A stretch of DNA of 64,000 nt from contig JACQXN010000020.1 in the NCBI GenBank assembly GCA_016208745.1, forward strand, positions 9,062 to 73,061, in the 5' to 3' direction. This stretch comes from Candidatus Portnoybacteria bacterium. Its GTDB lineage: Bacteria > Patescibacteriota > Minisyncoccia > Portnoybacterales > GWB1-42-6. The stretch's first letter is position 1. Every line of letters begins with the position of its first letter. Under the pieces are notes generated by a model. It saw only the letters and a program-made list of their open reading frames with translations. It was not told the origin of the DNA and ran no database searches. The translations under genes were made by a program, and so were the position numbers. Positions 2,494-62,807 of this stretch are shown piece by piece.

Positions 2494-3177
2494 ATGACCC
2501 AGTTGTCTTATCAATATGCCTATATTATTGCCTGTTTAATCCTCCTTATTTTTTGGCTCTTTATATTTCTAAAACGCAAGGATTTGCGAAAAGAAATGAT
2601 TTGGGCAAGTTTAGCTGGCCTGCCCTTTGGTTTTATTGACTGGTTTTTGGTGCCAGTTTATTGGCATCCAGAATCTCTGTTTGATTTAATAAAAAAATAC
2701 GGTGTGGGGATTGAGAGCTTTGTTTTCTTTTTCGCCATGGCCGGCATTGCGGCGGTGGCTTATGAATTTACTGAAAAAAGAAAGATAAAAAGGATAGGCC
2801 GGAGTAAAAAATTGCATCTTCTGCCTTTTTTTCTGGCTTTGGTTTCCTTTCTGATATTAACCATCGCTTCTCCTGAAAAAGCGGTTTATAATCTTATGGC
2901 TTCTGGCGCTATTGGCACTTTTTTAATAATTTTTTTCCGCCGCGATCTTTTAGAGCAGATTTTGGGGAGTGCTTTTATTTTTAGCTTTTTTTATTTTGTC
3001 GCCCTGTTTTTGGTCGGTCGGATTTTTAACGGGGTGATTGAAAGTTTCTATAACCTTTCAAGCATTTGGGGGATATTTATTGCCGGCGTGCCGCTGGAAG
3101 AAATATTGGTGGCATTTTTTGCCGGCGCTTTTTGGTCATGTGCCTATGAATACGCCAAGTCGTATCAAGAAAGATAA
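2494..3177 (+). CDS. Membrane protein, possibly lycopene-cyclase-domain (CrtYcd-like) family
   Basis: 227 aa with two internally similar hydrophobic halves. This resembles lycopene cyclase domain proteins that are common in small genomes. It is a weak family call. Confidence 0.4.
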   Translation: MTQLSYQYAYIIACLILLIFWLFIFLKRKDLRKEMIWASLAGLPFGFIDWFLVPVYWHPESLFDLIKKYGVGIESFVFFFAMAGIAAVAYEFTEKRKIKRIGRSKKLHLLPFFLALVSFLILTIASPEKAVYNLMASGAIGTFLIIFFRRDLLEQILGSAFIFSFFYFVALFLVGRIFNGVIESFYNLSSIWGIFIAGVPLEEILVAFFAGAFWSCAYEYAKSYQER

Positions 3178-3268
3178 TTAAGCCAGTTTAGCTATTATAG
3201 AACTCCCTGTCTATAAAACCCAAGGCATTATTTTAGAAAAGACCGATCTTTCGCCAACTGATCGGCTT

Positions 3269-3805
3269 TTGACTATTTACACTAAAAGCTTTGGCAAAAT
3301 TTTAGTTAGAGCCAAGGGGGTTGGCAAAAAAGAATCAAAGCTTAAATCTTTTCTGGAGCCGTTTAATTTATGCGAATTTTTACTGGCCAGAAGCAAAACC
3401 ATTGATGTTTTAACTGGCGTTGAATGTTTAAAAGAATTTATTCATTTGCGAAGCAATCTTGAGTCTCTGGCGCTCGCTTTTTATTTTTCGGAACTGATTG
3501 ATAAATTAGTTGTGGCGCCAGAACGAGATGAAAAAATTTGGACGTTATTGACAAGGGCGATGGAGGCGTTGGAAAAAGCATCATCCACAGAAGCAGAGCC
3601 AAAATTTTACCCTTCGACAAGCTCAGGGAATAAAATTTTAGCTCCAGGTTTACTCAAATTAAAATCAGCTTTTGAGGAAAAGCTGATTGAGTTTCTGGGA
3701 TATAAAATTGAAAAACCAAAAGATAATTTACGCTATATTCAATCTTTGGCTGGCGAAGAAATAAAATCAGCTAGATTTTTAAGGTCATTAAGTTTAAGCA
3801 AATAA
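3269..3805 (+). CDS. recO: DNA repair protein RecO. The true start is probably upstream, near 3182-3230, with a non-canonical start codon.
   Basis: The N-terminal OB-fold-like sequence continues in frame upstream of the TTG at 3269 (ASLAIIELPVYKTQGIILEKTDLSPTDRLLTIYTKSFGKI...), typical of a RecO N-terminus. No ATG, GTG or TTG lies between the upstream in-frame TAA (3179-3181) and 3269. Confidence 0.65.
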   Translation: MTIYTKSFGKILVRAKGVGKKESKLKSFLEPFNLCEFLLARSKTIDVLTGVECLKEFIHLRSNLESLALAFYFSELIDKLVVAPERDEKIWTLLTRAMEALEKASSTEAEPKFYPSTSSGNKILAPGLLKLKSAFEEKLIEFLGYKIEKPKDNLRYIQSLAGEEIKSARFLRSLSLSK

Positions 3806-5097: not shown

Positions 5098-8275
<3,178 letters not shown>

Positions 8276-9968: not shown

Positions 9969-9978
9969 TTTTCTTTAA

Positions 9979-10168
9979 GCCACTTTTTGTGCCGACAAAA
10001 AGTGGCCAAAAAACTCTCGCCACGCGTAAAAAATAAAGAAAAATCGGGCTCGCTTCGCTAAATTTGCTATGCCCAGCGCTTCGCGCTGACAACCACAACA
10101 CGCAAATTTTTAACGCTCGGCTCGTCTCGATTTTCTAGTTATTTTTTCGCGATGGCGAATAAATTTTA
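9979..10168 (+). repeat. Copy 1 of a ~190-bp structured intergenic repeat, glyQS to M16 peptidase
   Basis: A 5' hairpin CCACTTTTTGTGCCGACAAAAAGTGG, conserved blocks AAAAAACTCTCGCCA, ATCGGGCTCGCTTCGCTAAATTTGCTATGC and ACGCAAATTTTTAACGCTCGGCTCG, and a variable apical hairpin. Confidence 0.65.
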
Positions 10169-21236: not shown

Positions 21237-21365
21237 ATAGTCTTTGGATATAGTAGATCATATTTGAAAAAAAAGCAAAATTGAGGTAGAGTAAAATAAA
21301 AATCCACCCCGACCCTCCTTTTCCAAAGGAGGGGATATTCCTTCTTTCGAAAAAGGGAGGCCAAG

Positions 21366-21488
21366 ATGGATTTGGAATATATGGATAAATATGACCCGAA
21401 AAAAGTAGAGCCCAAATGGCAGAAGTTTTGGGAGGAACATCCCGAGCTTTTTTCAGCCAAAGAAGATTCCAAGGGAAAAAAGGAATAG
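21366..21488 (+). other. leuS: N-terminal 40 codons of leuS, separated from the main ORF by an in-frame TAG at 21486-21488
   Basis: The translation MDLEYMDKYDPKKVEPKWQKFWEEHPELFSAKEDSKGKKE is followed by TAG, then ILDMFPYPSGDG. This is the canonical LeuS N-terminus (YNPKEIExKWQKxW...). Confidence 0.8.
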
Positions 21489-21491
21489 ATT

Positions 21492-23987
21492 TTGGATATG
21501 TTTCCATATCCTTCAGGCGATGGTTTGCATACCGGGCATGTTGAAAGCTATACCGCAACAGATATCATTTCCCGTTATTGGCGTATGAAGGGAAAAAATG
21601 TTTTGCATCCGCAGGGCTTTGACGCTTTTGGTTTGCCGGCAGAAAACTTTGCCATTAAAACAAAGATTCATCCTTCGCAAACCACTCAAAAAGCAATTGC
21701 CACTTTCAAGCAGCAAATGAATATGCTCGGATTTTCCTATGATTGGTCGCGGGAAGTTAATTCGTCTGACCCAAAATATTATAAGTGGACACAATGGTTT
21801 TTTCTTTTACTTTACAAAAATGGTCTGGCATATAGGGGTAAAGCAAAAGTTAATTGGTGCAATTCTTGTCAAACGGTTTTGGCCAACGAACAGGCCGAAG
21901 GCGGAGTTTGCGAGCGATGCGGCAGTCCGGTTGTGCAAAAGGATTTGGAGCAGTGGTTTTTTAAAATTACTGATCTTATTGAATCCAAGGGCGCTACTTC
22001 CGGATTGCTACAGGGTCTTGATAAAATTGACTGGCCAGAATCAACCAAAGCCGGCCAGCGCAACTGGATAGGGAAGTCAGAGGGAGCGCAGTTTAAAATG
22101 GAAATTATAACCAGTACCACCCCGGCCTCCGGCCACCCCTCCTCAGCTGAGGAGGGGACGAAAGGGGAGGTGTTGGATTATATTGAAGTTTTTACAACGC
22201 GATTGGACACGGTTTTTGGGATGACTTTTGCCCTTATCGCTCCGGAACATAAGATTATCAACGAGCTTAAATCGCAAATTGAGAATTGGAGTGAGGTTGA
22301 AAAATATATTGAAGAGGCCAGGAAAAAATCAGAGTTGCAAAGAATTTCTGAAACCAAAGAAAAAACAGGAGTGGAAATAAAAGGCGTAAAAGTTATTAAT
22401 CCTTTTACCGAGCAGGAAATTCCGGTTTTTATTTCCGACTTTGTTTTAGCGCATTATGGAACAGGCGCTGTTATGGCCGTTCCCGGACACGACCAGCGCG
22501 ATTACGAATTTGCTAAAAAATTTAACCTGCCGATTATTGAAGTGATAAAAAGCGAGGACAGAAAATCATCAATTGAAAAGGAGGCATTTATAGAAGATGG
22601 GGTATTGGCTAATTCGCGCGAATACGACAATACAACTTCTGCAAAAGCACGCGAAAAATTAATTGAGTGGATCCAGAAAAATAATCTGGGCGAAAAGAAA
22701 ATTAATTACAAAATGCGCGATTGGTTGGTTTCGCGGCAAAGATATTGGGGCGCGCCAATCCCGATAATTTATTGTCCGCAATGTTGTCATTCCCGCCCCG
22801 CATCGCAGTACGGGGCGAATCTAGAAAACGAAAAATCTGGATCCCGGATCAAGTCCGGGATGACAGAATTTGAAATTACAGAGATTGACGGAAAAAAATA
22901 TGCGATGGTCCCCATTCCAGAAAAAGATTTACCAGTGCTTTTGCCTGATGATGTTGATTTTATGCCGCATGGCGAATCCCCTCTTTCAAAATCAAAAAAA
23001 TTTCACGATGTTTCGTGTCCAAAATGCGGAGAGAAGGCGAAAAGGGAGTCAGACACAATGGACACATTTGTCTGTTCCTCCTGGTATCATTTCCGTTATG
23101 CTGATCCGAAAAACGAAAAAGAATTTGCCAGCAAAGAGAAAATAGAGAAATGGTTGCCAGTTGATTTGTATGTTGGGGGCGCGGAGCATACGGTTTTACA
23201 TCTTTTGTATTCCCGTTTTTTTACCAAGGCCTTGCATAATCTCGGCTACATTGATTTTGACGAGCCGTTTTTAAAAATGCGGCATCAAGGAATAATTTTG
23301 GCTGAAGACGGCCAAAAAATGTCAAAGTCGCTCGGCAATGTTATCAATCCTGATTCGGTGGTGGCACAATATGGCGCCGATGCCTTACGGATGTTTGAAA
23401 TGTTTATGGGGCCGCTGGAAGATGCAAAACCTTGGAATACTAAGGGGATCACCGGGATCTATAGGTTTTTGGAGAAAGCATGGAGGATAAGCTTAAAGTT
23501 TAAAGTTAAAAGTGAAAAGTCAGGGCTAGAAGTTAAAAGTTTAATACATAAAACAATTAAGAAAGTTAGTGAAGACATAGAAAAATTAAAATTTAATACA
23601 GCTATCAGCGCATTAATGGTTTTGCTAAATGAGATTGAAAAAAACGAAGAAATGCCCATCGAGGTTTTTGAAAAGTTTTTAATTCTCCTTTCGCCCTTTG
23701 CGCCGCATATCTCAGAGGAGATTTGGTCACAGTTAGGTCATGAAGAAAGTATTTTTAAAGAAAAATGGCCTGAATATAATCCCGAATTAATTAAAGAAGA
23801 GATAATTGAGTTGATCATTCAGATTAACGGCAAGGTGCGCGATACGATTTCTGTGGCGGTTGATATTTCGGAAACTGACGCTAAAAAACTCGCGCTTGAA
23901 AGCGAGAAGATAAAAAAATATCTTTTGGGCAGAGAGCCAAAGAAAATTATTTTTGTTAAAGAGAAACTAATAAATATTGTATTGTGA
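21492..23987 (+). CDS. leuS: Leucyl-tRNA synthetase main ORF (TTG or ATG restart just after the TAG). It carries at least three in-frame repeat insertions.
   Basis: Contains MFPYPSGDGLHTGH (HIGH), KMSKSLGN, the editing domain and a Zn knuckle CPQC...CPKCG. The insertions are at 22118-22175, 22785-22865 and 23492-23547. Confidence 0.9.
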   Translation: MDMFPYPSGDGLHTGHVESYTATDIISRYWRMKGKNVLHPQGFDAFGLPAENFAIKTKIHPSQTTQKAIATFKQQMNMLGFSYDWSREVNSSDPKYYKWTQWFFLLLYKNGLAYRGKAKVNWCNSCQTVLANEQAEGGVCERCGSPVVQKDLEQWFFKITDLIESKGATSGLLQGLDKIDWPESTKAGQRNWIGKSEGAQFKMEIITSTTPASGHPSSAEEGTKGEVLDYIEVFTTRLDTVFGMTFALIAPEHKIINELKSQIENWSEVEKYIEEARKKSELQRISETKEKTGVEIKGVKVINPFTEQEIPVFISDFVLAHYGTGAVMAVPGHDQRDYEFAKKFNLPIIEVIKSEDRKSSIEKEAFIEDGVLANSREYDNTTSAKAREKLIEWIQKNNLGEKKINYKMRDWLVSRQRYWGAPIPIIYCPQCCHSRPASQYGANLENEKSGSRIKSGMTEFEITEIDGKKYAMVPIPEKDLPVLLPDDVDFMPHGESPLSKSKKFHDVSCPKCGEKAKRESDTMDTFVCSSWYHFRYADPKNEKEFASKEKIEKWLPVDLYVGGAEHTVLHLLYSRFFTKALHNLGYIDFDEPFLKMRHQGIILAEDGQKMSKSLGNVINPDSVVAQYGADALRMFEMFMGPLEDAKPWNTKGITGIYRFLEKAWRISLKFKVKSEKSGLEVKSLIHKTIKKVSEDIEKLKFNTAISALMVLLNEIEKNEEMPIEVFEKFLILLSPFAPHISEEIWSQLGHEESIFKEKWPEYNPELIKEEIIELIIQINGKVRDTISVAVDISETDAKKLALESEKIKKYLLGREPKKIIFVKEKLINIVL
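22785..22865. mobile_element. TGTCATTCCCGC-TIR MITE inserted in-frame (81 bp, 27 codons) inside leuS
   Basis: TGTCATTCCCGCCCCGCATCGCAGTACGGGGCGAATCTAG...ATCTGGATCCCGGATCAAGTCCGGGATGACA encodes the extra segment between CPQCC and EFEITEIDGKKY in the LeuS Zn-knuckle region. Confidence 0.65.
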
Positions 23988-24954: not shown

Positions 24955-25150
24955 GCCGCTTTTTTGGCAGCAAAAAAGCGGCGGAAAAAACTGCGCCCAG
25001 AGCGTAAAAATTTAATAAAATCGGATTCGCCTCGCTAAATTTGCTATCCACAACGCCCCAACCTTACGGTCGGGGCCCCACCACAGCACGCAAATTTTAC
25101 GCTTGGCTCATCGCGATTTTATTAATAAATTTTTCGCTATAGGCGGTGAA
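24955..25150 (+). repeat. Copy 2 of the ~190-bp structured intergenic repeat, tsaC to PAP2
   Basis: Same block order. The 5' hairpin is CCGCTTTTTTGGCAGCAAAAAAGCGG, a different sequence with the same fold. Confidence 0.65.
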
Positions 25151-27804: not shown

Positions 27805-27810
27805 ATTTTG

Positions 27811-27963
27811 CTACGGAATACAGATAAGTACAGATATACGGATAAAAACAAAATCCACCCCGCCCCTCCTTTAAAAAGGAGGGAGATTCCTCCCTTTGAA
27901 AAAGGGAGGGTAGGAGGGATTTGGATTTAATCTGTATATCTGTAATAAATCCATAATCCGTAG
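27811..27963. mobile_element. MITE-like element. It has roughly 35-bp terminal inverted repeats (CTACGGAATACAGATAAGTACAGATATACGGAT) and a CCTCC-family palindromic core.
   Basis: The left end 27811-27845 and the reverse complement of the right end 27925-27963 match. A second copy with the same TIRs and a different core is at 44658-44858. Confidence 0.6.
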
Positions 27964-27970
27964 AGAAATC

Positions 27971-35577: not shown

Positions 35578-37695
35578 TTATACGTTCTCATAATTTCTAA
35601 CGAGGTCCACCGCTTCATTCAGCATCTGGATATATAGATTAAGCCCCACGGCGTTGATTTGGCCTGATTGTTCGCGGCCCAAGATATTGCCTGCCCCGCG
35701 GATTTCCAAATCGCGCAGAGCGATTTGATAGCCAGAACCAAGCGCTTGCGCTTCTTTTAGCGCGTCTAATCTTTGTTGCGCAATGTCGGTCAGATTTTTT
35801 TCATTATACAAAAAATAGGCATAGGCCTGTTTATCAGAGCGCCCAATTCTGCCTCGCAATTGATAGCTTTGGGCCAGGCCAAGTTTTGTCGCGTTTGCAA
35901 CAATTAGAGTATTAACATTGGGAAAATCCAAGCCGTTTTCAATAATTGTTGTGGCCACTAGAATATCAATCTTTTTTTCGCCAAAATCATCCATCACTTT
36001 TATCAATTGTTTTTCGTTCATGCGGCCGTGAGCAATAGCAATATAAATTTTCCCCCCCTCCTTTTTAAAGCCTGCCTGTCCGGTAGGCAGGGAGGGGTGG
36101 GGTGGATTTTTTGAATTATCTCCATCCGTAGAATAAATCCCTCCCAGCCTCCCTTTAAAAAGGGAGGAGTTTTTTAGTAATTTCTCAATCTGCTTCTTTG
36201 CCAGTTCAATTGTTTCAATCCGATTATGCAGATAATAAATTTGTCCGCCTCGCTTTAATTCAAATTCAATCGCTTTTTTAATTGTTTTTGGTGAATAGGG
36301 TTCAATAAATGTTTTAACTGCCAATCGGCCGGGCGGCGCGGTTTGAATTAAACTGATATCGCGCAAGCCGGTTAAAGATAAATGCATTGTTCTTGGGATA
36401 GGCGTGGCGCTCAAACTTAAAATATCTATGTTGGCGCGCATTTCTTTAAATCGCTCTTTTTGTTTAACGCCAAATCTTTGTTCCTCATCTATTATAACTA
36501 GTCCAAGACTTGGAAACTCTACGTCTTTTTGAATGAGACGATGGGTGCCAATAACAATATCAGTCTGGCTGTCTTTAATTTGTTTTATGGTTTGAGCCTG
36601 ATTCTTTTTTGATTCCAATCTTGAAAGCAGCGCGATATTAATTGGAAATTTTTTAAGCCGGTTTAAAAAATTATGATAATGCTGGTGGGCTAAAATGGTT
36701 GTTGGCGTGATTAAAGCTACCTGTTTGCCAGCAGTTACTGCTTTAAAAGCCGCGCGCAAAGCGATCTCTGTTTTGCCAAAACCAACATCCCCGCAAATTA
36801 ATCTGTCCATTGGTTTTTCCGATTCCATATCTTTTTTAACGTCTCTCATAGCAGACAATTGATCTTCGGTTTCAATATATAAAAAAGAATCTTCCAGCTC
36901 TTTTTGCAAAGCGTCATCTGGCGGAAATTTAAAACCAGAAACTGCTGCGCGCTTGGCATAAATCTCCAATAATTCTTTAGCCAGATTCAAGGCGCTTTCT
37001 TTGATTTTTCTTTTGGTTTTATACCAGAGCGTTCCGCCAAGGCGATGCACAATCGGCGTTTCAAAGCCAATGTATCTGGTTAATTTTTCTTCCAGTTCAA
37101 GCGGCACATAAAGCCGGTCATTTTTGGCGTATTCTAAAACGAAATATTTTTCTTGACTCTCGGGCGTCGGCGAGTTAAAAGAAAGCTCGCCACCTAGTTC
37201 TTTGGCAAAGCCCTTAAAAATGCCAATGCCATGGTCCAGATGAACCAGATATTCATTCGGTTTTAAATTTGCCAGAAGTTGCGAAGGCGCTTGTTTTTTA
37301 AGGGCTTTCTTGATTGTTTCTGGCTTTTCGTCGATTTTAATTTCAAGAGAAAAAATTTCAGCCAGCTCATTGCCGGAAAATTCAAGGCGCAAGGCCGAAT
37401 CCATATTTATCGGAAAAATATCTAAGATCCCGCCGCGTTGGGAGAGCTCGCCGGGTCTAGCCAATGTTTGCACGCGCTCATAACCAAAATTAGTCAGTTT
37501 TCTTAATAGCTCAAATAGATTTATTCTCTGATTTTTTTCTAAAAAGATCGTATTATCCTTCCACCAGATCTGGGTTTTAGCTACTTCTTCTATTTTTTTT
37601 TGGTTTTCGGAGAACCAAAAGATATCCCGATCTAGGAAATACGGCGACAAGCTTGCAATTAGAATTTTAGTTGGATTTTTACTTTCTGATATCAT
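35578..37695 (-). CDS. mfd: Transcription-repair coupling factor Mfd, compact 705-aa form, carrying an in-frame palindromic-repeat insertion
   Basis: UvrB-homology region (ARPGELSQRGGILDIFP), SF2 helicase motifs (GDVGFGKTEIALRA, DEEQRFGV) and the TRG motif. The insertion ...KGRLGGIYSTDGDNSKNPPHPSLPTGQAGFKKEGG... is encoded by a CCTCC-family element at about 36050-36172. Confidence 0.8.
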   Translation of the reverse strand: MISESKNPTKILIASLSPYFLDRDIFWFSENQKKIEEVAKTQIWWKDNTIFLEKNQRINLFELLRKLTNFGYERVQTLARPGELSQRGGILDIFPINMDSALRLEFSGNELAEIFSLEIKIDEKPETIKKALKKQAPSQLLANLKPNEYLVHLDHGIGIFKGFAKELGGELSFNSPTPESQEKYFVLEYAKNDRLYVPLELEEKLTRYIGFETPIVHRLGGTLWYKTKRKIKESALNLAKELLEIYAKRAAVSGFKFPPDDALQKELEDSFLYIETEDQLSAMRDVKKDMESEKPMDRLICGDVGFGKTEIALRAAFKAVTAGKQVALITPTTILAHQHYHNFLNRLKKFPINIALLSRLESKKNQAQTIKQIKDSQTDIVIGTHRLIQKDVEFPSLGLVIIDEEQRFGVKQKERFKEMRANIDILSLSATPIPRTMHLSLTGLRDISLIQTAPPGRLAVKTFIEPYSPKTIKKAIEFELKRGGQIYYLHNRIETIELAKKQIEKLLKNSSLFKGRLGGIYSTDGDNSKNPPHPSLPTGQAGFKKEGGKIYIAIAHGRMNEKQLIKVMDDFGEKKIDILVATTIIENGLDFPNVNTLIVANATKLGLAQSYQLRGRIGRSDKQAYAYFLYNEKNLTDIAQQRLDALKEAQALGSGYQIALRDLEIRGAGNILGREQSGQINAVGLNLYIQMLNEAVDLVRNYENV

Positions 37696-46200: not shown

Positions 46201-46390
46201 CCTACTTTTTGTACCGACAAAAAGTAGGCAAAAAACTCTCGCCAAGCATAAAATTTTGATAAAATCAGACTCGGCTCGCTAAAATTGCTATGCACCCCGC
46301 ATTCTGCGGGGCCCAAAGGCACAGCACGCAATTTTTTAACGCTCGTCTTGCCTCGATTTTATTGCAAAATTTTTGCTATGGCGAAGAGGG
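46201..46390 (+). repeat. Copy 3 of the ~190-bp structured intergenic repeat, yqeY to ybeY
   Basis: Same block order. Hairpin CCTACTTTTTGTACCGACAAAAAGTAGG. The long-stem pairing AAAATTGC/GCAATTTT differs from AAATTTGC/GCAAATTT in copies 1 and 2 in a compensatory way. Confidence 0.65.
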
Positions 46391-51393: not shown

Positions 51394-52749
51394 ATGAAAA
51401 AAATTTATTTAATTCCAATTTATATCCTCTGTGTAAGCCTAATCTTTTCGCCGCTTAATTTCTTGTTGGCGGCCGATAAAGTTGATTTGGCCGGATACGC
51501 AATGAGCCGTTTGAGCGGTCTGTCTTTTGGCTTGTTTAATCAAGACCAAAATCAGTCAGAAGAACTAATCTTGTTAGACGGGGATATCTCTGAAGAATTT
51601 TCCTTGCTTTCGCCCGGCGCGCCATTTGGCCCCAATCTTATTAAAAATCCCTCGCTGGAGACAGCCGGCCTTTTAAGCGGTTTGCCGGAGTTTTGGTCCC
51701 ACGGAAGTTGGGACAAAAATAATCCAGTTCCAAGCTACCCGGTTTCTGGATTTGACGAAGAAAGAGCGGTTAGGATAGATATTGATAAATACGTTGGCGG
51801 AGACAGCAAATGGTATTTTGAAGACGTGGAGATTGCCGCTGGCAAGCATTATCTTTTTTCGGATTCATTTAAGTCTACAATTCCCAGCGTTTTAACTGCC
51901 AGATTCCTTTTAGCCGATAATACTTATCGATATTTTGATGTTGCTAATTTGCCTGCTTCATTTATTTGGCAGACAGCCTCGCAAATGATAACCGCGCCTT
52001 ATAACGCAAAATCGCTGACAATTTTCCATTCAATAAGAGGTAATGGTTCGTTGACTACTGATAACTTTTCTTTAAGAGAAATACCGGTCAGCGGCGGATT
52101 TTCTCAAGGTTTTGTTTCTTTGGATTTTGATGATGGTTGGGCGCTTACCTATAAAAACGCTTTGCCGATTTTAAACAAAGCGGGTCTAAAAAGCACGCAG
52201 AGCATAATCAGCGGTAGCATAAAAGATTGGCATTATGTTAATAAATCTCAGATTTTAGATATGCAAAATTCCGGACACGAAATTGCTTCGCATACAAAAA
52301 CGCACGCAGACTTAACTCGATTTTCAGCGAGCCGGGTGAAAGATGAAGTAGCCGGCTCAAAGAAAGCTTTATTATCGCTTGGCGTGGAGGCAATCAATTC
52401 ATTTGTGTATGCTCACGGAAAATACAATAACCAAGCAGAGGAAGCCGTAAAGGATGCTGGCTTCATAAATGCAAGAACCATTGATATTGGTTACAATACA
52501 AAAACATCCAATCCATATTTATTGAAAAGTCAGGTAATCGCATTAAACACTAGTTTTGATGAAGTAAAATTCTGGATTGACAGAGCGATTGCCGATAAAA
52601 CTTGGGTGATTTTGGTTTTTCATCAGATAGATTATAGCGGTCAAACATATAGCGCTACCCCAGAAATGTTGCAGCAAATTGTTGATTATCTAGTTTTACA
52701 GAATGTTTCGGTTTTGACCAATTCGCAAGGCGCGGCATTGCTTGAATAG
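51394..52749 (+). CDS. Secreted polysaccharide deacetylase (NodB homology) with an N-terminal CBM-like domain
   Basis: Signal peptide, a CBM-like segment (NLIKNPSLE...), then NodB motifs VSLDFDDGW and HEIASHTKTH. Confidence 0.75.
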   Translation: MKKIYLIPIYILCVSLIFSPLNFLLAADKVDLAGYAMSRLSGLSFGLFNQDQNQSEELILLDGDISEEFSLLSPGAPFGPNLIKNPSLETAGLLSGLPEFWSHGSWDKNNPVPSYPVSGFDEERAVRIDIDKYVGGDSKWYFEDVEIAAGKHYLFSDSFKSTIPSVLTARFLLADNTYRYFDVANLPASFIWQTASQMITAPYNAKSLTIFHSIRGNGSLTTDNFSLREIPVSGGFSQGFVSLDFDDGWALTYKNALPILNKAGLKSTQSIISGSIKDWHYVNKSQILDMQNSGHEIASHTKTHADLTRFSASRVKDEVAGSKKALLSLGVEAINSFVYAHGKYNNQAEEAVKDAGFINARTIDIGYNTKTSNPYLLKSQVIALNTSFDEVKFWIDRAIADKTWVILVFHQIDYSGQTYSATPEMLQQIVDYLVLQNVSVLTNSQGAALLE

Positions 52750-52779
52750 TTTTTGAATTGAATCATAGGCTCTGTTATT

Positions 52780-52849
52780 TGTCATTCCCGCGAAAGCGGG
52801 AATCCAGGCTCTTTTTTGAATCTAGATTCCCGCTTTCGCGGGAATGACA
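52780..52849. mobile_element. MITE of the TGTCATTCCCGC-TIR family (inverted pair of REP-like hairpins)
   Basis: TGTCATTCCCGCGAAAGCGGGAATCCAG...ATCTAGATTCCCGCTTTCGCGGGAATGACA. The two halves are reverse complements of each other. Confidence 0.6.
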
Positions 52850-52923
52850 AGACTGAGTATTATGTAATTCAAGCAGGAAGTTTTTTAAAAACAAAATAAA
52901 ACAAAAACATAAGGAGGCAAAAG

Positions 52924-54162
52924 ATGAAAGCAAGATTGAACGGTGTTTTTTTGGTGGCTTGTGCGGTTTTTTTCTTATTAACCTTAACCAGCGCGAGTTT
53001 CGCGTATGAACTGCCAAAGATGGTCGGCATTACCTGTGATGACGGGCAAGCCGATTCTTTGGAAAGAATGCTGTCTGTCACGATCCCTCTTGGGCTCAAG
53101 GTTGACCTTTTTTTGGTTACTGATTTCCTTGATGAAGGGGATTGGTCTATTGACTGGGCCAGGGCGAAAGAGCTCCAAACTCTTTATCCCGGCCTAGTTA
53201 AAATCAATAGTCACTCAAGGACTCATCCCTACTTTACGTCGCTTACCAATGCGCGATTGATTGATGAGACGCGCGGCTCAAAGCTTCAGTTCTCGGCTCA
53301 CGGCATTAATACAGATGACATGGGGATCGCCACGCCGTATGGCGACTTCAACCTTAAGGTCTTGTCTTTTGTGGCAAGATATTATCCTTGGCATCGGGCG
53401 GCTTGGGATTATGATGGTGATGGCGTGATCAACAAATGGCCTTTAAATGATTGTCAGTTGGAGATCTTTGAGCCGACACCGAATATGCCGGGCGAAGAAG
53501 TGATTGCCCGGGTCCAAGAAGACATAGCGCAAGGTGGACTTCCATTGCTTTTATTCCACGAATTTACGCCGGCTGGCGTTGTGCCGGGAGATTGGCAATA
53601 TCCAATTGAGGAATTCAAAAAAATTGTAAATTGGATTGCCGCAAACAGTGACACGATTAAATCTGTCACGATTTCGGAGGCACTGCATCTAACCGACGCC
53701 CCAAATTTGGTGAAAAACTATTCTTTTACTAACCGGAATGTTAATGGTTGGGCGAAGAATTGGTCGCGGAGCGGCGCGGGAGTTACGATCAATACGGCTC
53801 ACCAGGGCAATTTTCCTGAATTTACAAACAGCTTGCGAATTGTCGGTGGTTCTGTGGAGCGCAAAGCCTGGAACGATCAGGTGCCAGTGGATGAGGGCTC
53901 CGAATACATTATCAAGATGTATCAGAGCTGCCAGAATTGGGTCGCGGGCGGTTGGTGCGTCTGGGTTGATGAATTTAACTTAGACGGATATTATATTGGC
54001 GGCCAACGGTTAGGAGGCAACTACTGGAACTTCGTTGGCTGGCGGTATTATCAATATCAGCCTTCACCCGGAACCGCCAAAGCTTCTATCCAACCTTATG
54101 TAGAGGCGGGCAGTCGGTTGACTCTGTTCGTTGATTCAGTGGAGATGAGGAAGCTGCCATAG
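52924..54162 (+). CDS. Secreted polysaccharide deacetylase (NodB) with a C-terminal CBM-like domain; paralogue A
   Basis: Signal peptide, NodB motifs (ITCDDGQAD, NSHSRTHP), and a C-terminal CBM-like domain (NLVKNYSFTN...FVDSVEMRKL). Confidence 0.75.
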   Translation: MKARLNGVFLVACAVFFLLTLTSASFAYELPKMVGITCDDGQADSLERMLSVTIPLGLKVDLFLVTDFLDEGDWSIDWARAKELQTLYPGLVKINSHSRTHPYFTSLTNARLIDETRGSKLQFSAHGINTDDMGIATPYGDFNLKVLSFVARYYPWHRAAWDYDGDGVINKWPLNDCQLEIFEPTPNMPGEEVIARVQEDIAQGGLPLLLFHEFTPAGVVPGDWQYPIEEFKKIVNWIAANSDTIKSVTISEALHLTDAPNLVKNYSFTNRNVNGWAKNWSRSGAGVTINTAHQGNFPEFTNSLRIVGGSVERKAWNDQVPVDEGSEYIIKMYQSCQNWVAGGWCVWVDEFNLDGYYIGGQRLGGNYWNFVGWRYYQYQPSPGTAKASIQPYVEAGSRLTLFVDSVEMRKLP

Positions 54163-54257
54163 ATAATTATTTCCCCCTTTATAAAAGGGGGATTCAGGGG
54201 GATTTTTAAAATCCCTCCCAGCCTCCTTTTTTCAAGGGAGGAGTAAGAAAACAAATA

Positions 54258-54294
54258 CACCCGACGCAAAATAAAGCGTCGGGTTTTTAATTTT
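54258..54294 (+). terminator. Intrinsic terminator, CACCCGACGC-N8-GCGTCGGGT plus T5
   Basis: Perfect stem plus TTTTT. It is duplicated after the next paralogue at 55685-55718. Confidence 0.6.
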
Positions 54295-54397
54295 AGCAGC
54301 ACAAAAAACTTGACAACATTATTGTTGTGTGTTAGATTGGTTGATTCAAAGAGTGAGGAGAAATTCCTTAAAAACAAAACAAAAACGGAGGTAAAAA

Positions 54398-55621
54398 ATG
54401 GAAACAAGAAAGGTAGTAAGTATTTGGATGATTATTTTAGCGGTAACTTTTATGGTAACCGCGAATTCGGCCGCTTATGAGCCGCCGGCCAAGTGTACAA
54501 TCTTTTTTGATGATGGTCAGAGGTCAATTTATGACATCGCCTTGCCTATAATGGCGGCGAGAAACCTTAAGGCCGTAATTTGCCCTAGGGCCGATTGGAT
54601 GGGTTTGGGAGAAGGCTGGGTGATGAACTGGGAAGAGGTCTCGACTCTGAAGACGCAATATAAGTGGGAAGTTACCAGCCATGGAATAGACCATCCAGAT
54701 TTCACCACATTGTCAGACCCGGATCTGGAATGGCAGATGATAGGTTCCAAGGATGCATTTGCCGACCACAATATTATTGTTAGGGGCATCGCAACGCCTT
54801 TTGGTGCTTACAATGGCAAGGTTTTGTCGGCTATCGCCAGAAACTATTTTTGGCATCGCACAGCAGACGCAGGGGTGGATTCTTGGCCCTATAATGACTA
54901 TATGCTTAAGGTTATAGAGCCAAAAAGGGACACGCCGCCTGAAGATGTAATTACGCAACTTCAGGACGCCTTTGCTCAAGGCCAATGGCCTAAGCTTTTG
55001 TTTCACAATCTCGTGGATGGGGTGCCGTTGGATTATCAATACAACTCGGCGGACTTCGCCCAGATTATGGACTTTATCCAAGCAGAGAGAGACCGGGGAG
55101 CCGTTAAGGTTGTGACGGTTACGCAAGGTTTGAGGTTGCCTGCTGGCAACAACTTGGTGCCAAACAGCAGCTTTGAGAATTTAAAACCCAACGGTTGGCC
55201 AAAAAATTGGTGGCTGAATGATGGGGCTGATTCAAGCAAAGTCTTCTTGGACAACGCTAATCACGGTAATTTTCCAAAGCCGAAAAACTCCATCAAGATT
55301 ATTGGTGATGCTCTGCCGCAAGGCATCCAATCAGCCAAAATCGCAGTCAGCAGTAATTCTGAGTATATCGTCAAGATGTTTCAGAATGTTCAAGATCTTG
55401 TTGCTGGTGGTTGGAGCGTCCATGTAGACGAATTTGACTCATCTGGCGCTTATATCGGGACTCGGTGCCTTGGCAACAACTGGGATAATTTCTTTGACTG
55501 CCGGTATTATGAATATCAGCCATCTGTCAAAGCCGTGAAAACGGCTATCATAATTTCAACTTGGGAAAACAGCGAGTTGACGCTACGTGTTGACTCGGTT
55601 GAATTCCGGAGATTAAATTAG
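54398..55621 (+). CDS. Secreted polysaccharide deacetylase (NodB) with a C-terminal CBM-like domain; paralogue B
   Basis: Same architecture as 52924..54162 (IFFDDGQRS, SHGIDHP, C-terminal ...VDSVEFRRLN). This is a tandem duplicate that includes the downstream repeat and terminator. Confidence 0.75.
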   Translation: METRKVVSIWMIILAVTFMVTANSAAYEPPAKCTIFFDDGQRSIYDIALPIMAARNLKAVICPRADWMGLGEGWVMNWEEVSTLKTQYKWEVTSHGIDHPDFTTLSDPDLEWQMIGSKDAFADHNIIVRGIATPFGAYNGKVLSAIARNYFWHRTADAGVDSWPYNDYMLKVIEPKRDTPPEDVITQLQDAFAQGQWPKLLFHNLVDGVPLDYQYNSADFAQIMDFIQAERDRGAVKVVTVTQGLRLPAGNNLVPNSSFENLKPNGWPKNWWLNDGADSSKVFLDNANHGNFPKPKNSIKIIGDALPQGIQSAKIAVSSNSEYIVKMFQNVQDLVAGGWSVHVDEFDSSGAYIGTRCLGNNWDNFFDCRYYEYQPSVKAVKTAIIISTWENSELTLRVDSVEFRRLN

Positions 55622-55684
55622 CAAAAAGGGGAATAAATCCACCCCACCCCTCCTTTTTCAAAGGAGGGAGTAAAAAAACAAATA

Positions 55685-55768: not shown

Positions 55769-56240
55769 TTGACAGCATTTTACTATTTGCTAAACTAATA
55801 TAACGCCTTAAAAAGGCGCTAAAAAACCATAGATTAAAATTAGAAAACAAAATTAGAATTTAGATTTAAACCACCTACGGAGGGTAGCGAGAATCGTAAT
55901 GCAAGAGCCCGATAAGCTCACACATTACATACTGATTGACTAGAAGGGTGGTTTTTTTATTTTCTCGTCAAAAATTTCAAGTGTTAACGCAGAAATTTTT
56001 GTAACGAGAAAATAACCCCGCATTTATTCTTACCAAAGGGCAAGAAGACCAGTAAACGAAGGCGCAGGTCTCAAGGCCGGAGCCGTTTCGCGCAATAATA
56101 CAGAAATAGATAAACTTGGCTGGAATAAGTGCGGGGTTGAAAACAGAATTTATTGTCCGCATACCCGCCGTCGCCAAGGCTTTGGCGGGCAGGCGCGGGA
56201 GATTCTTCTCCGTCCGCAAATGCGGACGGAGAAGAATGAC
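55769..56240 (+). ncRNA. Copy A of a conserved promoter plus structured non-coding element of unknown class
   Basis: Promoter TTGACA-16-TAAACT, then hairpin H1 (AAACCACC...GGTGGTTT plus T-run), hairpin H2 (16-bp stem), a domain H3 closed by a 15-bp stem ACCCCGCAYTTATTC/GAATAAGTGCGGGGT, and a 17-bp perfect hairpin at 56195-56236. It is homologous to 62808-63205 with compensatory changes. Confidence 0.5.
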
Positions 56241-56548
56241 AGAAGAAAGTTAATCCAAATTTTAACATCCGATTGTTAATCTGGCGCATAGGGGGCGAAG
56301 TTCTATAAATAATTTTTTTATAAATCCCTCCCAACCTCCCCTAAAGGGGAGGAGTAAAAAATTCCCCTCCTTTAGGAGGGGTTAGGGGAGATTTAGTAAA
56401 AGGTCGACATTGCCTGCTTTCCGCTTTTAGCGGTTTTCTGCCAAAAGCAGGGCAGTGAACTAGCACATTTTAAAAATAAAGGCAGAAAACAGATATTAAC
56501 GAATTGCGGATTAACGAATTTTAACGCGTTAGTTCGTTAATTCATAAA

Positions 56549-57412
56549 ATGATACAAAAATCTATGAAAAAAGTTTTCGTTACCTTAACAGTTTTATCGT
56601 TAATGGTATTGACGGCGGCTCCTGCTTTGGCTGGTCATCGTCCTTCAAGACACCAAATGCCAGCTAATGACAGCGATATCACAATTAATATTGATAATGA
56701 GGCGACTGTTACCAACATCGTTTCTGTCGGAGCTTACACCGGCGGCAATACCTCTAAAGGCGATGACGGCGGCGACGGCGGCGACAGCGGCGAAGCAGAA
56801 GTTGAAGGAGCTAAAGGCACTGCCACTTCCGGCGACGGCGGCGACGGCGGCGACGGCGGCAATGGCGGCACAATCACCTCTGGTGATGCAGATGCGAGCG
56901 CCTATATTGCTAACGTAGTTAATACCAATTTGACTTCAGTTGATGCTTGCGGTTGCGAAGAAGGAGAAGAGGAAGATGGCTGTGGATGTGAAGATCCTTG
57001 CGGCTGTCAGTCTCGCTGCGGCGGCTCTCAACAAGGGGATGACTGTGGTTGCATTGATGACATCAAAGTTGACATAGAAAACAAAAAGACTGATGTTAAC
57101 AACAATGCAGGAGTTATGGCCGACACAGGTTTAAATGAATCCAAAGGCGATGACGGCGGCAATGGCGGCGACAGCGGCGAAGCAGAAGTTGAAGACCAAG
57201 ACAAAGACAGAGACAACAGATGGCATCGCGGCGGCTGCAATACTTGCGGCAGTGATTCAGAAGACAGCGAATGCTGCCCTGAAGCCACTTCAGGTGATGC
57301 AGGCGATGGCGGCGACGGCGGCAATGGTGGTGAAATCACCAGCGGCGCAGCTGCGGCTACAGCCAAAGTATTTAATCTGGTTAACACCACTGTTACCAGA
57401 GTTCGCAGATAA
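56549..57412 (+). CDS. Secreted Gly/Asp/Cys-rich repeat protein
   Basis: Signal peptide, two internal repeats (SKGDDGGxGGDSGEAEVE...TSGDAxxxAxxxNxVNTxxT), and a CGC-rich metal-binding-like segment. The antisense ORFs are spurious. Confidence 0.6.
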   Translation: MIQKSMKKVFVTLTVLSLMVLTAAPALAGHRPSRHQMPANDSDITINIDNEATVTNIVSVGAYTGGNTSKGDDGGDGGDSGEAEVEGAKGTATSGDGGDGGDGGNGGTITSGDADASAYIANVVNTNLTSVDACGCEEGEEEDGCGCEDPCGCQSRCGGSQQGDDCGCIDDIKVDIENKKTDVNNNAGVMADTGLNESKGDDGGNGGDSGEAEVEDQDKDRDNRWHRGGCNTCGSDSEDSECCPEATSGDAGDGGDGGNGGEITSGAAAATAKVFNLVNTTVTRVRR

Positions 57413-57737
57413 CTATTTTTTGCGAAACGAGCAGGAGAAGCTTTCGGGCTTCTCCTCTCGGATAAGCTCTTAATTTATTTCCCCCTTTTTAAAGGGGGAT
57501 AAAGGGGGATTTAAAAAGACAAATCTAAATCCACCCCTCCCCTCCTTTAAAAAGGAGGGGAGGAATATCGATTGATAGCTTATGCGAGGGAAAAATGCCA
57601 GAATTTCTAATTACTCCGCCCAAGGCGGATCCGCCTCTGGCGGATAATTCAATCCCAATGCCCAATGTCAAGATTTAAAAATTAGACATTTGGGAACTAA
57701 ATATTTTATTGGAAATTAGGAATTATTTAAGAAATTT

Positions 57738-58346: not shown

Positions 58347-58544
58347 ATTCACTGAATCATAAAGCGGGCATTTTTTGCCTCCCCTCCTCAGATGAGGAGG
58401 GGAATTAAAGGGGTGGTGGTGACCTTAATAATTCAACACCCCACCCTACCCCTCCCCTCATCTGAGGGGAGGGAAGACGCCTATTTTATAATTCAATGTT
58501 AAGCCAATATTTTAATCTAACTCCGGAGGGAAGTTATATCGGTT

Positions 58545-61349: not shown

Positions 61350-61691
61350 TTTTTTGAGGCTGAGTTTGTCTAATAATAACTTGATTAGCCACAAATCCTC
61401 CCTCGCCTCGCTTAAGCTCCGGCGAAGCGGGCCAGCCCTCCCCCGTATCAAGTACGGGGCAAGCTCTAAAGGGAGGGAGCAGGGATTATTCCCCTCCTTT
61501 AGGAGGGGTTAGGGGAGATTTAGATTGGTGTAAGAGTTAATTAATTTCAGGAACCATCGCAGATTACATTATTATTCATTAAACCCTAGGCTATTATTTG
61601 TTTGACAGGATTCCTTGAGGCGGTAAAATGATAAATAAACATCGCTTTTTTTGCAGCGGGCGAGTTTTAATAATTATTAAAACTATAAAAA

Positions 61692-62566: not shown

Positions 62567-62807
62567 TCTTTTTTCCTCCTCTCAGACTTGCCCCGTTCAG
62601 CGGGGTGAAGGAGAGGTAGGGTGGGGTGTTGAAAAGACAAATTTTACAATAATTCCCTCTCCTCAGTTGAGGAGAGGGGAAGGGTGAGGTGATGTTTTCA
62701 AATCAACACCACCCCCAACCCCTCCTCATCTGAGGAGGGGAGGAATCATTTTAGGGTTTTCCACAGATTTCTCCACATTTGGTTCACTTTTCATAAACAG
62801 CGCGATT

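What the first reader, a model, noticed from the sequence alone, without database searches (positions are those of the whole stretch)
9979..10168. 190-bp structured intergenic repeat present three times, with covariation in two stems
Copies at 9979-10168, 24955-25150 and 46201-46390 each fill the gap between two co-oriented + strand genes. All share the same block order:
- A 5' hairpin whose sequence differs but whose fold is kept: CCACTTTTTGTGCCGACAAAAAGTGG, CCGCTTTTTTGGCAGCAAAAAAGCGG and CCTACTTTTTGTACCGACAAAAAGTAGG.
- AAAAAACTCTCGCCA-GCGTAAAAA.
- An arm AAAATCGGGCTCGCTTCGCTAAATTTGC.
- A variable GC hairpin.
- The complementary arm GCAAATTTTTAACGCTCGGCTCGTCTCGATTTT.
- TTTTCGCGATGGCGAA.

In copy 3 the arm pairing is AAAATTGC/GCAATTTT instead of AAATTTGC/GCAAATTT, a compensatory double change. 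The element looks like a long imperfect stem capped by a hypervariable hairpin, preceded by a terminator-like hairpin with no T-run. It may be a structured RNA such as a processing or terminator/antiterminator module, an sRNA, or a structured MITE.
Basis: seen in the sequence. Interest (0 to 1): 0.8.

Follow-up and report, generated by a model that had tools for sequence, protein, structure and literature searches.

The report
Replication-oriented hairpin repeat family in Portnoybacteria
The three 190-bp copies belong to a previously undescribed family of hairpin-forming interspersed repeats in Portnoybacteria (candidate phyla radiation) genomes, and their orientation follows the direction of DNA replication rather than the neighbouring genes, so they look like small REP/ERIC-type mobile DNA and not a regulatory RNA.

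Summary
Three + strand copies lie at 9979-10158, 24955-25145 and 46201-46388. They are 60-71% identical, and the window holds no other copy. The window comes from a Candidatus Portnoybacteria MAG.

The same element occurs at least 81 times in 72 other loci from Patescibacteria MAGs and metagenomes. Each copy has a 12-bp 5' hairpin, an A-rich linker and one long imperfect hairpin. Pairing is very well supported: 93% of cells are paired and 42 of 63 pairs show changes on both sides. Five T·C mismatches are invariant.

The evidence favours folding as single-stranded DNA over a role as a cis-acting mRNA element:
- G·T and A·C cells are equally rare.
- In 58 of 59 loci the element's + strand is the G-rich (lagging-strand-template) strand. 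This includes every locus where the flanking genes point the other way.
- One MAG carries two 195-nt copies that are 100% identical, at unrelated sites, with no target-site duplication.
- The Sua5|PAP2 junction is filled or empty in a patchy way among relatives.

Rfam and the literature search found nothing. I classify it as a new family of REP/ERIC/BOX-like small mobile DNA. Its mobilising enzyme is unknown.

The parts
9979..10158 (+). Copy 1, whole element, between the class II aaRS gene (stop at 9968) and the M16 peptidase gene (ATG at 10173)
   Evidence: nhmmer 9976-10162, E = 3.9e-44
9979..10006 (+). Copy 1, 5' hairpin GCCACTTTTTGT-GCCG-ACAAAAAGTGGC (12 bp). It is followed by the A-rich linker CAAAAAACTC at 10007-10016
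   Evidence: Helix 1 shows double changes at 9 of 12 pairs
10017..10158 (+). Copy 1, long imperfect hairpin. It comprises the base stem TCGCCACGCG/CGCGATGGCGA, AT-rich stems, the CTCGCTTCGCT/ACGCTCGGCTCG helix with T.C mismatches, helix AAATTTGC (10060-10067) / GCAAATTT (10101-10108), a C/A-rich internal loop, and the apical hairpin CAGCGC-TTC-GCGCTG (10074-10088)
24955..25145 (+). Copy 2, whole element, between Sua5/TsaC (stop at 24947) and PAP2 (TTG at 25155). The 5' hairpin is at 24955-24982, the long hairpin at 24994-25145, and the apical hairpin GCCCCAACC-TTAC-GGTCGGGGC at 25056-25077
   Evidence: E = 6.2e-57. The PAP2 start was confirmed against orthologues
46201..46388 (+). Copy 3, whole element, between YqeY (stop at 46159) and YbeY (ATG at 46424). 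The 5' hairpin is at 46201-46228, the long hairpin at 46236-46388, and the apex CCCCGC-ATTCT-GCGGGG at 46294-46310, followed by a small GCC-CAAA-GGC hairpin
   Evidence: E = 6.5e-44. Short-read contigs L001 and L002 break inside this copy

Best explanation
The three copies belong to a family of non-coding interspersed repeats about 195 bp long, found in Portnoybacteria-type Patescibacteria. They are small, non-autonomous DNA of the same general kind as REP/REPIN, ERIC, BOX and IS200/IS605-derived palindromic elements.

The unit has three parts: a 12-bp hairpin, an A-rich linker, and one long hairpin with conserved T.C mismatches and a C/A-rich internal loop.

Shown:
- The pairing is maintained by many compensatory changes.
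- The element has been copied to new sites without a target-site duplication.
- It is gained or lost at a given gene junction among relatives.
- Its polarity is fixed relative to replication. The strand written here as + is almost always the G-rich strand, that is, the lagging-strand template.

Inferred: the structure that matters is a fold of single-stranded DNA exposed at the replication fork. Copying or excision would be carried out by an enzyme that acts on such folds (an HUH/Y1-type transposase or something similar) and that has not been identified. When a copy is transcribed, the same hairpin will form in the mRNA and may incidentally affect processing or stability. That RNA effect is not what sets the element's orientation.
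For: - Size of the family: 14 loci in 6 species-level MAGs and 57 metagenome loci match a strict two-block pattern. A profile finds 81 strong copies.
- Structure: 93.0% of cells are paired against 80.8% in shuffles and at most 52% in slid controls. 42 of 63 pairs change on both sides. The covariation score is 0.324 against 0.127.
- Wobble test: G.T cells number 42-50 and A.C cells 53-83, each about 1.5-2.5% of cells, so there is no RNA-type wobble excess. Five T.C mismatches are invariant or nearly so.
- Orientation: third-codon-position GC skew is positive on the element's strand in 58 of 59 non-redundant loci, with one tie (p = 2e-16). This includes all 10 loci with a flanking gene pointing the other way and all 5 loci where most coding sequence points the other way.
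- Gene-level skew: co-oriented genes have a mean GC3 skew of +0.158 and anti-oriented genes -0.143. The anti-oriented neighbours are real genes: DprA, Mfd, Pth, LytR, PriA and a radical SAM protein.
- Structure is kept in those contexts: their copies keep 94-98% Watson-Crick pairing (one outlier, L064, at 67%).
- Consistency within contigs: all contigs with two or three copies have them in one orientation. The window has positive GC skew throughout.
- Mobility: L005 and L013 lie on different contigs of one MAG and share a 195-nt block that is 100% identical, with unrelated flanks and no duplication.
- Relatedness: the closest relatives of window copies 1 and 2 (84% and 83%) sit at other junctions in other metagenomes, while the window copies are only 60-71% alike.
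- Patchy occupancy of the Sua5|PAP2 junction: filled in the window, in L075 (76% Sua5 identity) and in L020 (61%); empty in L074 (81%), L076 (73%, with a remnant) and L077 (71%).
- Mosaicism: L013 carries a chimera with the same 5' hairpin, linker and base stem but a different interior. L010 has two adjacent copies with identical apexes and different outer parts.
- Assembly behaviour: short-read contigs end inside copies.
- Internal control: an IS200 element (Y1_Tnp, 107 bits) in L050 lies in the same orientation relative to skew. This agrees with the published lagging-strand-template rule for ssDNA transposons (PMC6006769).
Against: - No mobilising enzyme was found. The only Y1 transposase in the 556 kb held has end hairpins unlike the element's.
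- Copy number appears low: 3 in 64 kb here, and at most 4 strict-pattern hits per MAG.
- Several junctions are occupied in genomes whose flanking proteins are only 45-67% identical. Four-fold degenerate sites are near saturation there (0.32-0.43 identity), while orthologous copies keep 59-73% identity. This suggests either purifying selection, meaning a host function, or repeated re-invasion.
- One truncated copy at a contig end in L074 is inverted.
- The two identical copies could come from gene conversion between older copies rather than from transposition.
- Every locus was recruited through a strict pattern in one helix, so the sample is a biased slice of the family.
Confidence: 0.6

Rival explanations
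1. It is a cis-acting RNA structure within polycistronic transcripts. The long hairpin would be an RNase III-type processing site or a 3'-end stabiliser, as proposed for ERIC, REP and Correia elements, and selection would act on the RNA fold.
For: - 39 of 55 copies with two scorable neighbours lie between co-oriented genes. They often start 0-14 nt after a stop codon and end 1-25 nt before the next start.
- Covariation is strong.
- Sequence is conserved well above synonymous sites at shared junctions.
- Because the element is nearly palindromic, either transcript strand would fold.
Against: - Orientation follows GC skew even where both neighbours are on the other strand. An RNA that works in either orientation would not explain a 58 of 59 polarity.
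- G-U pairs are no more frequent than A-C mismatches.
- Occupancy of the same junction is patchy among close relatives.
- No Rfam family matches.
Confidence: 0.15
2. It is a host-retained single-strand DNA signal on the lagging-strand template. The analogues are plasmid and phage single-strand origins or initiation signals (ssoA, M13 ori(-), Frpo, PriA assembly sites). The folded hairpin would rebuild -35 and -10 boxes, or a PriA site, and would prime or reload replication.
For: - Polarity relative to replication is fixed, and it is the polarity a lagging-strand primer would need (the geometry is my inference).
- A TTGA(G/T)A-N18-TAAATT promoter-like site sits at one alignment column in 35 of 55 distinct copies. 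It falls within the stem, just before the unpaired C/A-rich loop.
- Conserved mismatches imply recognition of a folded single strand.
- Several junctions are retained over deep divergence.
- PriA is present in these genomes.
Against: - The promoter-like site scores only 9 of 12 and is absent from 20 of 55 copies, including window copies 1 and 2. In those copies the -35 positions changed together with their pairing partners.
- No chromosomal system of this kind is known.
- No CS-6-like TAGCGT motif is in the terminal loop.
- Close relatives lack the element at the same junction.
Confidence: 0.08
3. It is an independent small-RNA gene, or a portable promoter, that is co-directional with replication in the way highly expressed RNA genes are.
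For: - Co-orientation with replication is expected for highly expressed genes.
- An internal promoter-like site is present in 35 of 55 copies and would drive transcription towards the downstream gene.
Against: - No conserved promoter lies upstream. The element starts a few nucleotides after the preceding stop codon.
- A transcript from the internal site would lack the 5' arm, so it could not explain the covariation.
- There is no terminator at the 3' end on the + strand.
- In L073 a strong TTGACA-17-TATACT promoter lies downstream of the element instead.
Confidence: 0.07
4. It is a chance similarity or a recent local duplication with no structural constraint.
For: None beyond the small number of copies in the window.
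Against: - The window copies are only 60-71% identical, yet each scores E < 1e-43 against the family profile.
- The family is found in dozens of other genomes, with compensatory changes.
Confidence: 0.01

Closest known systems
IS200/IS605-family elements and their non-autonomous palindrome-associated derivatives (PATEs)
   Same: Both lack terminal inverted repeats and target-site duplications, both depend on hairpins in one DNA strand, and both are strongly oriented with the active strand on the lagging-strand template (PMC6006769). A genuine IS200 copy in L050 has the same orientation relative to skew.
   Different: Those elements carry similar subterminal hairpins at both ends, and a fixed 4-5-nt target flanks the left end. 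Here only the 5' end has a small hairpin, and the 5' flank is merely T-rich (TCAT, TTT, TCTT). The one Y1 transposase found has unrelated end hairpins.
REP / BIME / REPIN elements with RAYT (TnpA-REP)
   Same: Both are intergenic, hairpin-forming and non-coding. Both are thought to be processed as single-stranded DNA. Both persist for a long time and are largely inherited vertically (bioRxiv 10.1101/2022.05.22.493013 abstract).
   Different: REPs are 20-40 nt with a GTAG or CGTC tag (PMC3733652 abstract), occur in hundreds of copies, and flank a RAYT gene. This element is about 195 nt, has no such tag, is low in copy number, and no RAYT was found in the DNA held.
ERIC (enterobacterial repetitive intergenic consensus) and pneumococcal BOX elements
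   Same: Both are imperfect palindromes of 100-200 bp at gene junctions. Both have conserved outer modules that pair and a variable or insertable interior, and both occur at shared junctions across species. No transposase is known for either. This comparison rests on my own knowledge of those families and was not tested here. It matches the extra-hairpin variants (L010, L031, L035, L075) and the L013 chimera.
   Different: As far as I know, a strict polarity relative to replication is not a feature of ERIC or BOX. There is no sequence relationship. The 5' hairpin plus A-tract module is specific to this family.
Integron attC sites (for example Vibrio cholerae repeats)
   Same: Both are imperfect palindromes of 60-140 nt lying directly between co-oriented genes. 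Both are recognised as folded single strands with conserved unpaired bases, and both have a biased orientation relative to replication (my own knowledge).
   Different: This element has no RYYYAAC/GTTRRRY core sites and is not in a cassette array next to an integrase. Copies lie 15-20 kb apart between housekeeping genes.
Correia elements and other DDE-type MITEs
   Same: Both are small, non-coding, palindromic and intergenic, and both can be co-transcribed.
   Different: MITEs have terminal inverted repeats at their extreme ends and a target-site duplication. Neither is present here.

Membership tests
Any Rfam 15 RNA family | Covariance-model match at or above the family's gathering score | tested here: not met
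   The whole window at the gathering threshold gave only tRNA-Leu. Copy 1 with permissive filters gave only three chance-level matches (two miRNA-precursor models and YenS) at 13-17 bits. The L013 chimera gave Chloroflexi-1 at 20 bits against a gathering score of 80.
DDE-type MITE | Terminal inverted repeats at the two extreme ends | tested here: not met
   The exact ends, taken from the identical pair L005/L013, are TCATCTAC... and ...GCGCGGT. The inverted repeat (the base stem) begins only after the 5' hairpin and linker.
DDE-type MITE | Target-site duplication flanking the element | tested here: not met
   The flanks are TTTTT/CTTGG in L005 and TTATC/AAATT in L013. No direct repeat is seen in other copies either.
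IS200/IS605-derived PATE | Strand-specific orientation with respect to replication (active strand on the lagging-strand template) | tested here: met
   GC3 skew is positive on the element's strand in 58 of 59 loci, including all loci with oppositely oriented neighbours. There is one likely exception, in L074.
IS200/IS605-derived PATE | Similar subterminal hairpins at both the left and the right end | tested here: not met
   A small hairpin is present only at the 5' end. The 3' end is the 3' strand of the base stem.
IS200/IS605-derived PATE | A fixed 4-5-nt target sequence abutting the left end | tested here: inconclusive
   TCAT precedes three copies of one subfamily (L005, L013, L040). Other copies have TATT, TCTT or NTTT.
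IS200/IS605-derived PATE | A cognate Y1 transposase whose IS ends carry the same hairpins | tested here: inconclusive
   A tblastn search of 556 kb with three Y1 queries written from memory found one IS200 (L050), which Pfam confirmed. Its end hairpins, CCCCGCGC-CTCCGT-GCGCGGGG, differ from the element's. Whole genomes could not be searched.
REP/REPIN-RAYT | A 20-40-nt REP unit with a GTAG or CGTC tag, in high copy number | tested here: not met
   The unit is about 195 nt. The 5' hairpin arms read CTAC...GTAG, GCCGC...GCGGC or GTTAC...GTAAC, so there is no consistent tag. There are 3 copies in 64 kb.
REP/REPIN-RAYT | A single RAYT gene flanked by the repeats | not testable with these tools
   This needs complete genomes of the hosts. 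No RAYT-like hit was found in the loci held.
Integron attC | R''/R' core sites (RYYYAAC ... GTTRRRY) and a cassette array next to intI | tested here: not met
   The ends carry no such motifs, and the neighbours are housekeeping genes 15-20 kb apart.
Intrinsic (Rho-independent) terminator | A GC-rich stem directly followed by a U-run on the transcribed strand | tested here: not met
   On the + strand an A-run follows the 5' hairpin, and no T-run follows the long hairpin. On the - strand a T5-6 run follows the long hairpin after 2-3 nt, which is marginal. Ordinary terminators exist elsewhere in the window.
ssoA / ssi-type single-strand initiation signal | An orientation-dependent folded ssDNA with promoter-like boxes in the stem and a conserved CS-6 loop motif | tested here: inconclusive
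   Polarity relative to replication is met. TTGAnA-N18-TAAATT is present in 35 of 55 copies. No TAGCGT is in the terminal loop. Priming activity cannot be tested here.

The most novel reading that the evidence does not exclude
The element is not selfish DNA. It is a host-retained, strand-specific single-stranded-DNA signal spread along the lagging-strand template of these very small genomes. When unwound at the fork it would fold into a hairpin that rebuilds a promoter-like or PriA-recognised structure and would prime or restart lagging-strand synthesis. That would be a chromosomal counterpart of plasmid and phage single-strand origins.
Probability: 0.07. Interest if true: 0.85.

Novelty: new member of a known kind. 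Interest (0 to 1): 0.45.

Why it matters
- Candidate-phyla-radiation genomes are usually described as streamlined and poor in repeats. Neither Rfam 15 nor the searched literature describes a repeat family of this kind in them.
- The family gives a well-populated example (more than 80 copies, 42 covarying pairs) in which strong "RNA-like" covariation is most simply explained by a DNA fold. It is a caution for covariation-based ncRNA discovery in metagenomes.
- The element's strict polarity could serve as a marker of replication direction in fragmented MAGs.
- The repeats break short-read assemblies of these genomes.
- If the element proved to be retained for a host function at the replication fork, that would be much more interesting.

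Tried and rejected
- Rfam at the gathering threshold on the window, and with permissive filters on copy 1 and on the L013 chimera: nothing credible.
- Viral contig scan with the family pattern: no hits.
- Literature searches on Patescibacteria/Parcubacteria with repeat, MITE, REP or structured-RNA terms: no paper combines them.
- Sigma-70 promoter and terminator scans. Around copy 1 there was only a weak unrelated hit. Across 55 copies one marginal internal site appeared on the + strand and none on the - strand. I rejected this as the main constraint, because the -35 positions change together with their pairing partners.
- Terminator/antiterminator switch between the 5' hairpin and the base stem (GCGGCGG with CCGCCGC). 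It is possible only in the GCCGC subfamily and absent in the others, so I dropped it.
- Target-site duplication and a fixed target sequence: none found.
- Site-specific clades. Copies at the same junction are only partly each other's closest relatives, so neither pure vertical descent nor pure mobility fits.
- Search for other elements sharing the outer frame in the loci held: only the L013 chimera and a solo 3' end fragment next to the L039 copy.
- Which strand is the active one. The - strand folds more stably in 51 of 55 copies, with both RNA and DNA parameters, because the T.C mismatches become tandem G.A pairs. Yet the + strand is the one on the lagging-strand template. This is unresolved.

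Full report
**Observation.** The three stretches are real and homologous. They lie at 9979-10158, 24955-25145 and 46201-46388, all on the + strand. The three-way alignment has 78% mean column identity, and pairwise identity over the family alignment is 60-71%. Each copy fills the gap between two + strand genes: a class II aaRS and an M16 peptidase, Sua5/TsaC and a PAP2 phosphatase, and YqeY and YbeY. Each folds much better than shuffled sequence, with z between -6.4 and -7.7. The reverse strand of copy 1 also folds well. A profile built later from the family finds exactly these three copies in the window, at E = 4e-44 to 6e-57, and no partial copies. The window belongs to a Candidatus Portnoybacteria MAG, because its Sua5 protein is identical to an NCBI entry of that name.

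**Anatomy.** The element is a 12-bp hairpin, a roughly 10-nt A-rich linker, and then a single long imperfect hairpin. From base to tip the long hairpin contains these parts:
- a GC-rich base stem (TCGCC/GGCGA or CCGCGC/GCGCGG), with a conserved (T/C)AT bulge on the 3' side;
- two AT-rich stems;
- a helix CTCGCCTCGCT / ACGCTCGGCTCG, in which five T.C mismatches are invariant or nearly so while the Watson-Crick pairs around them covary;
- the helix AAAWTTGC/GCAAWTTT;
- a large internal loop with C/A-rich sequence on both sides;
- a GC-rich apical hairpin that comes in about six types.

**A wide family.** A strict two-block pattern found 14 loci in six species-representative Patescibacteria MAGs and 57 metagenome loci. 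It found none in viral contigs. A profile search of all the DNA held finds 81 strong copies, of which 55 are distinct and full length. On a 53-sequence alignment with a 63-pair structure, 93.0% of cells form standard pairs. Column shuffles give 80.8%, and sliding the partner gives at most 52%. Forty-two pairs show changes on both sides, and the covariation score is 0.324 against 0.127. One caveat applies. Helix 5 and the adjacent bases were fixed by the search pattern, so their invariance carries no information. Divergent copies found by the profile do covary there, for example AAAATCGC/GCGATTTC in L047.

**RNA or DNA?** Four observations argue against a cis-acting mRNA element.
- *Wobble pairs.* G.T cells number 42-50 and A.C cells 53-83, each about 1.5-2.5% of cells. 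A functional RNA normally tolerates G-U far better than A-C. Here neither strand shows that asymmetry.
- *Polarity.* 39 of 55 copies lie between co-oriented genes. However, 5 lie between genes that both point the other way, and 11 lie at convergent or divergent junctions. Third-codon-position GC skew, expressed on the element's strand, is positive in 58 of 59 non-redundant loci, with one tie (p = 2e-16). This holds in all 10 loci with an oppositely oriented neighbour and in all 5 loci where most coding sequence is on the other strand. Genes co-oriented with the element average +0.158 and anti-oriented genes -0.143, so the skew reflects the replication strand and not transcription. The anti-oriented neighbours are genuine genes: DprA, Mfd, Pth, LytR, PriA and a radical SAM protein. 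The copies beside them keep 94-98% Watson-Crick pairing, apart from one outlier, L064, at 67%. Every contig with several copies has them in one orientation, and the window has positive skew throughout. The G-rich strand is by convention the lagging-strand template, so the + strand of the element is the one exposed as single-stranded DNA at the fork. An IS200 element with a Y1 transposase in L050 has the same orientation, as the published rule for that family predicts (PMC6006769). One truncated copy at a contig end in L074 is inverted.
- *Terminator features.* The + strand has no terminator features, because A-runs rather than U-runs follow the stems. The genome uses ordinary GC-stem-plus-T-run terminators elsewhere.
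- *Rfam.* No family matches.

**Evidence for mobility and turnover.**
- L005 and L013 lie on different contigs of one MAG and share a block of 195 nt that is 100% identical. It runs from TCATCTAC... to ...GCGCGGT. The flanks are unrelated and there is no duplication.
- The nearest relatives of window copies 1 and 2 (84% and 83%) lie at different junctions in other metagenomes.
- The Sua5|PAP2 junction is filled in the window, in L075 (76% Sua5 identity; the hairpin starts at the G of the stop codon) and in L020 (61%). It is empty in L074 (81%), in L076 (73%, whose spacer keeps a GCCGCT...AAAAAAC remnant) and in L077 (71%, a 3-nt spacer).
- Copies are mosaic. L010 has two adjacent copies with identical apexes but different outer parts. 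L010, L031, L035 and L075 carry an extra hairpin in the 3' arm. L013 holds a relative with the same 5' hairpin, linker and base stem but an unrelated interior.
- Short-read contigs end inside copies.

**Evidence that complicates a purely selfish reading.**
- Several junctions are occupied in genomes whose flanking proteins are only 45-67% identical. Examples are yqeY|ybeY in at least six genomes, a priA-upstream site, and others.
- Between such genomes four-fold degenerate sites are close to saturation, at 0.32-0.43 identity against 0.26 expected from composition. Copies at the same junction keep 59-73% identity.
- Either the element is under purifying selection, or it re-invades the few permissive junctions of these compact genomes, or copies are refreshed by recombination.
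- Copy number is low, and no mobilising gene was found. The only Y1 transposase seen has different end hairpins.

**Mechanism proposed.** The following points are shown: a conserved single-strand fold, polarity tied to replication, duplication without a target-site duplication, and gain and loss at a given junction. The following is inferred: the fold forms in the lagging-strand template and is the substrate of an unidentified enzyme specific for single-stranded DNA, as for IS200/IS605 and REP elements. Transcribed copies will also form the hairpin in RNA and may affect mRNA processing as a side effect.

An unresolved point is which strand is active. The - strand folds more stably in 51 of 55 copies, because the T.C mismatches become tandem G.A pairs in a CGAG context. 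The + strand, however, is the one on the lagging-strand template.

A marginal promoter-like site, TTGA(G/T)A-N18-TAAATT, lies inside the stem in 35 of 55 copies. This keeps open a more exotic reading as a single-strand initiation signal. I give that reading a low probability, because the -35 positions change together with their pairing partners and close relatives lack the element.

**Comparison with known families.** The element behaves like IS200/IS605-derived palindromic elements and REP/REPINs in its polarity, its lack of terminal repeats and duplications, and its dependence on hairpins. It fails their defining features: hairpins at both ends, a fixed target, a GTAG/CGTC tag, and an associated transposase. 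In architecture it is closest to ERIC and BOX elements, which have pairing outer modules and a variable interior. It is not a DDE-type MITE, an attC site or an intrinsic terminator. I therefore file it as a new family within the known kind "interspersed palindromic repeats / small non-autonomous DNA", so far restricted to Portnoybacteria-type Patescibacteria.

**Verdict.** Its most attractive interpretation, a regulatory RNA, is unlikely. Interest is moderate.

Noticed in passing
window 7626-7712, 21294-21373, 22126-22162, 27845-27922, 36129-36170, 54167-54232, 55629-55670, 56320-56396, 57479-57565, 58371-58477, 61391-61523, 62709-62745: A second, unrelated family of short palindromic repeats, for example AAATCCACCCCnCCCCTCCTTTAAAAAGGAGGG and CCCCTCCTCAGCTGAGGAGGGG. 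Several copies lie inside long ORFs and are read in frame: a tgt-like ORF (7052-8275), a LeuRS-like ORF (21492-23987) and an Mfd-like ORF (35578-37695, - strand). This resembles the in-frame insertions of Rickettsia palindromic elements.
   Followed up: no
window 56015-56137 and 63095-63202 (+): A two-copy element of about 110-125 nt, 80-83% identical, closed by a 16-bp stem ACCCCGCAyTTATTCT / GGAATAAGTGCGGGGT. Copy 1 has an extra 15-nt hairpin. Each copy lies upstream of an ORF (56549-57412, Gly/Asp-rich; and 63410 onwards). There is no Rfam hit at the gathering threshold.
   Followed up: partly
L013 1320-1530 (- strand): A chimeric relative. It has the same kind of 5' hairpin, the CAGAAAAAC linker and the base stem ...TTTTTCGTATGGGCGG, but an unrelated GC-rich interior hairpin (GTCGTCCCGAGCGTAGCGAGGGATCTC...). 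It folds at -101 kcal/mol (z = -8.3) and has only a weak resemblance to Chloroflexi-1 (20 bits).
   Followed up: partly
L050 about 2750-3315: An IS200-type insertion sequence. The Y1_Tnp ORF is at 2819-3265 (Pfam 107 bits). The left-end hairpin is CCCCGCGC-CTCCGT-GCGCGGGG and the right-end hairpin is CCCCGCCG-CTCCGT-CGGCGGGG. It lies 5 kb from a copy of the 190-bp element and has the same orientation relative to GC skew. Relatives are mostly on very short contigs.
   Followed up: partly
L074 4367-4423: A partial copy of the element in inverted orientation just after a ParA-like gene, cut by the contig end. It is the one likely exception to the replication-orientation rule. In the window, the corresponding ParA|ParB gap (27805-27970) holds the other repeat family instead.
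   Followed up: partly
L076 3146-3191: An 'empty' Sua5|PAP2 spacer that keeps GCCGCTGTTT...AAAAAAC. It looks like the remnant of a deleted copy.
   Followed up: no
L039 349-363 (- strand): A solo 3'-end fragment (TTTTTTGTATGCGCGG) lying 35 nt downstream of a full copy. It may be the remnant of a second, tandem copy.
   Followed up: no
window 56740-57340: Runs of GGCGGCGAC-type 9-nt periodic repeats within the ORF 56549-57412 (a Gly/Asp-rich, probably secreted protein). Three paralogous polysaccharide-deacetylase-like ORFs lie at 51394-55621.
   Followed up: no
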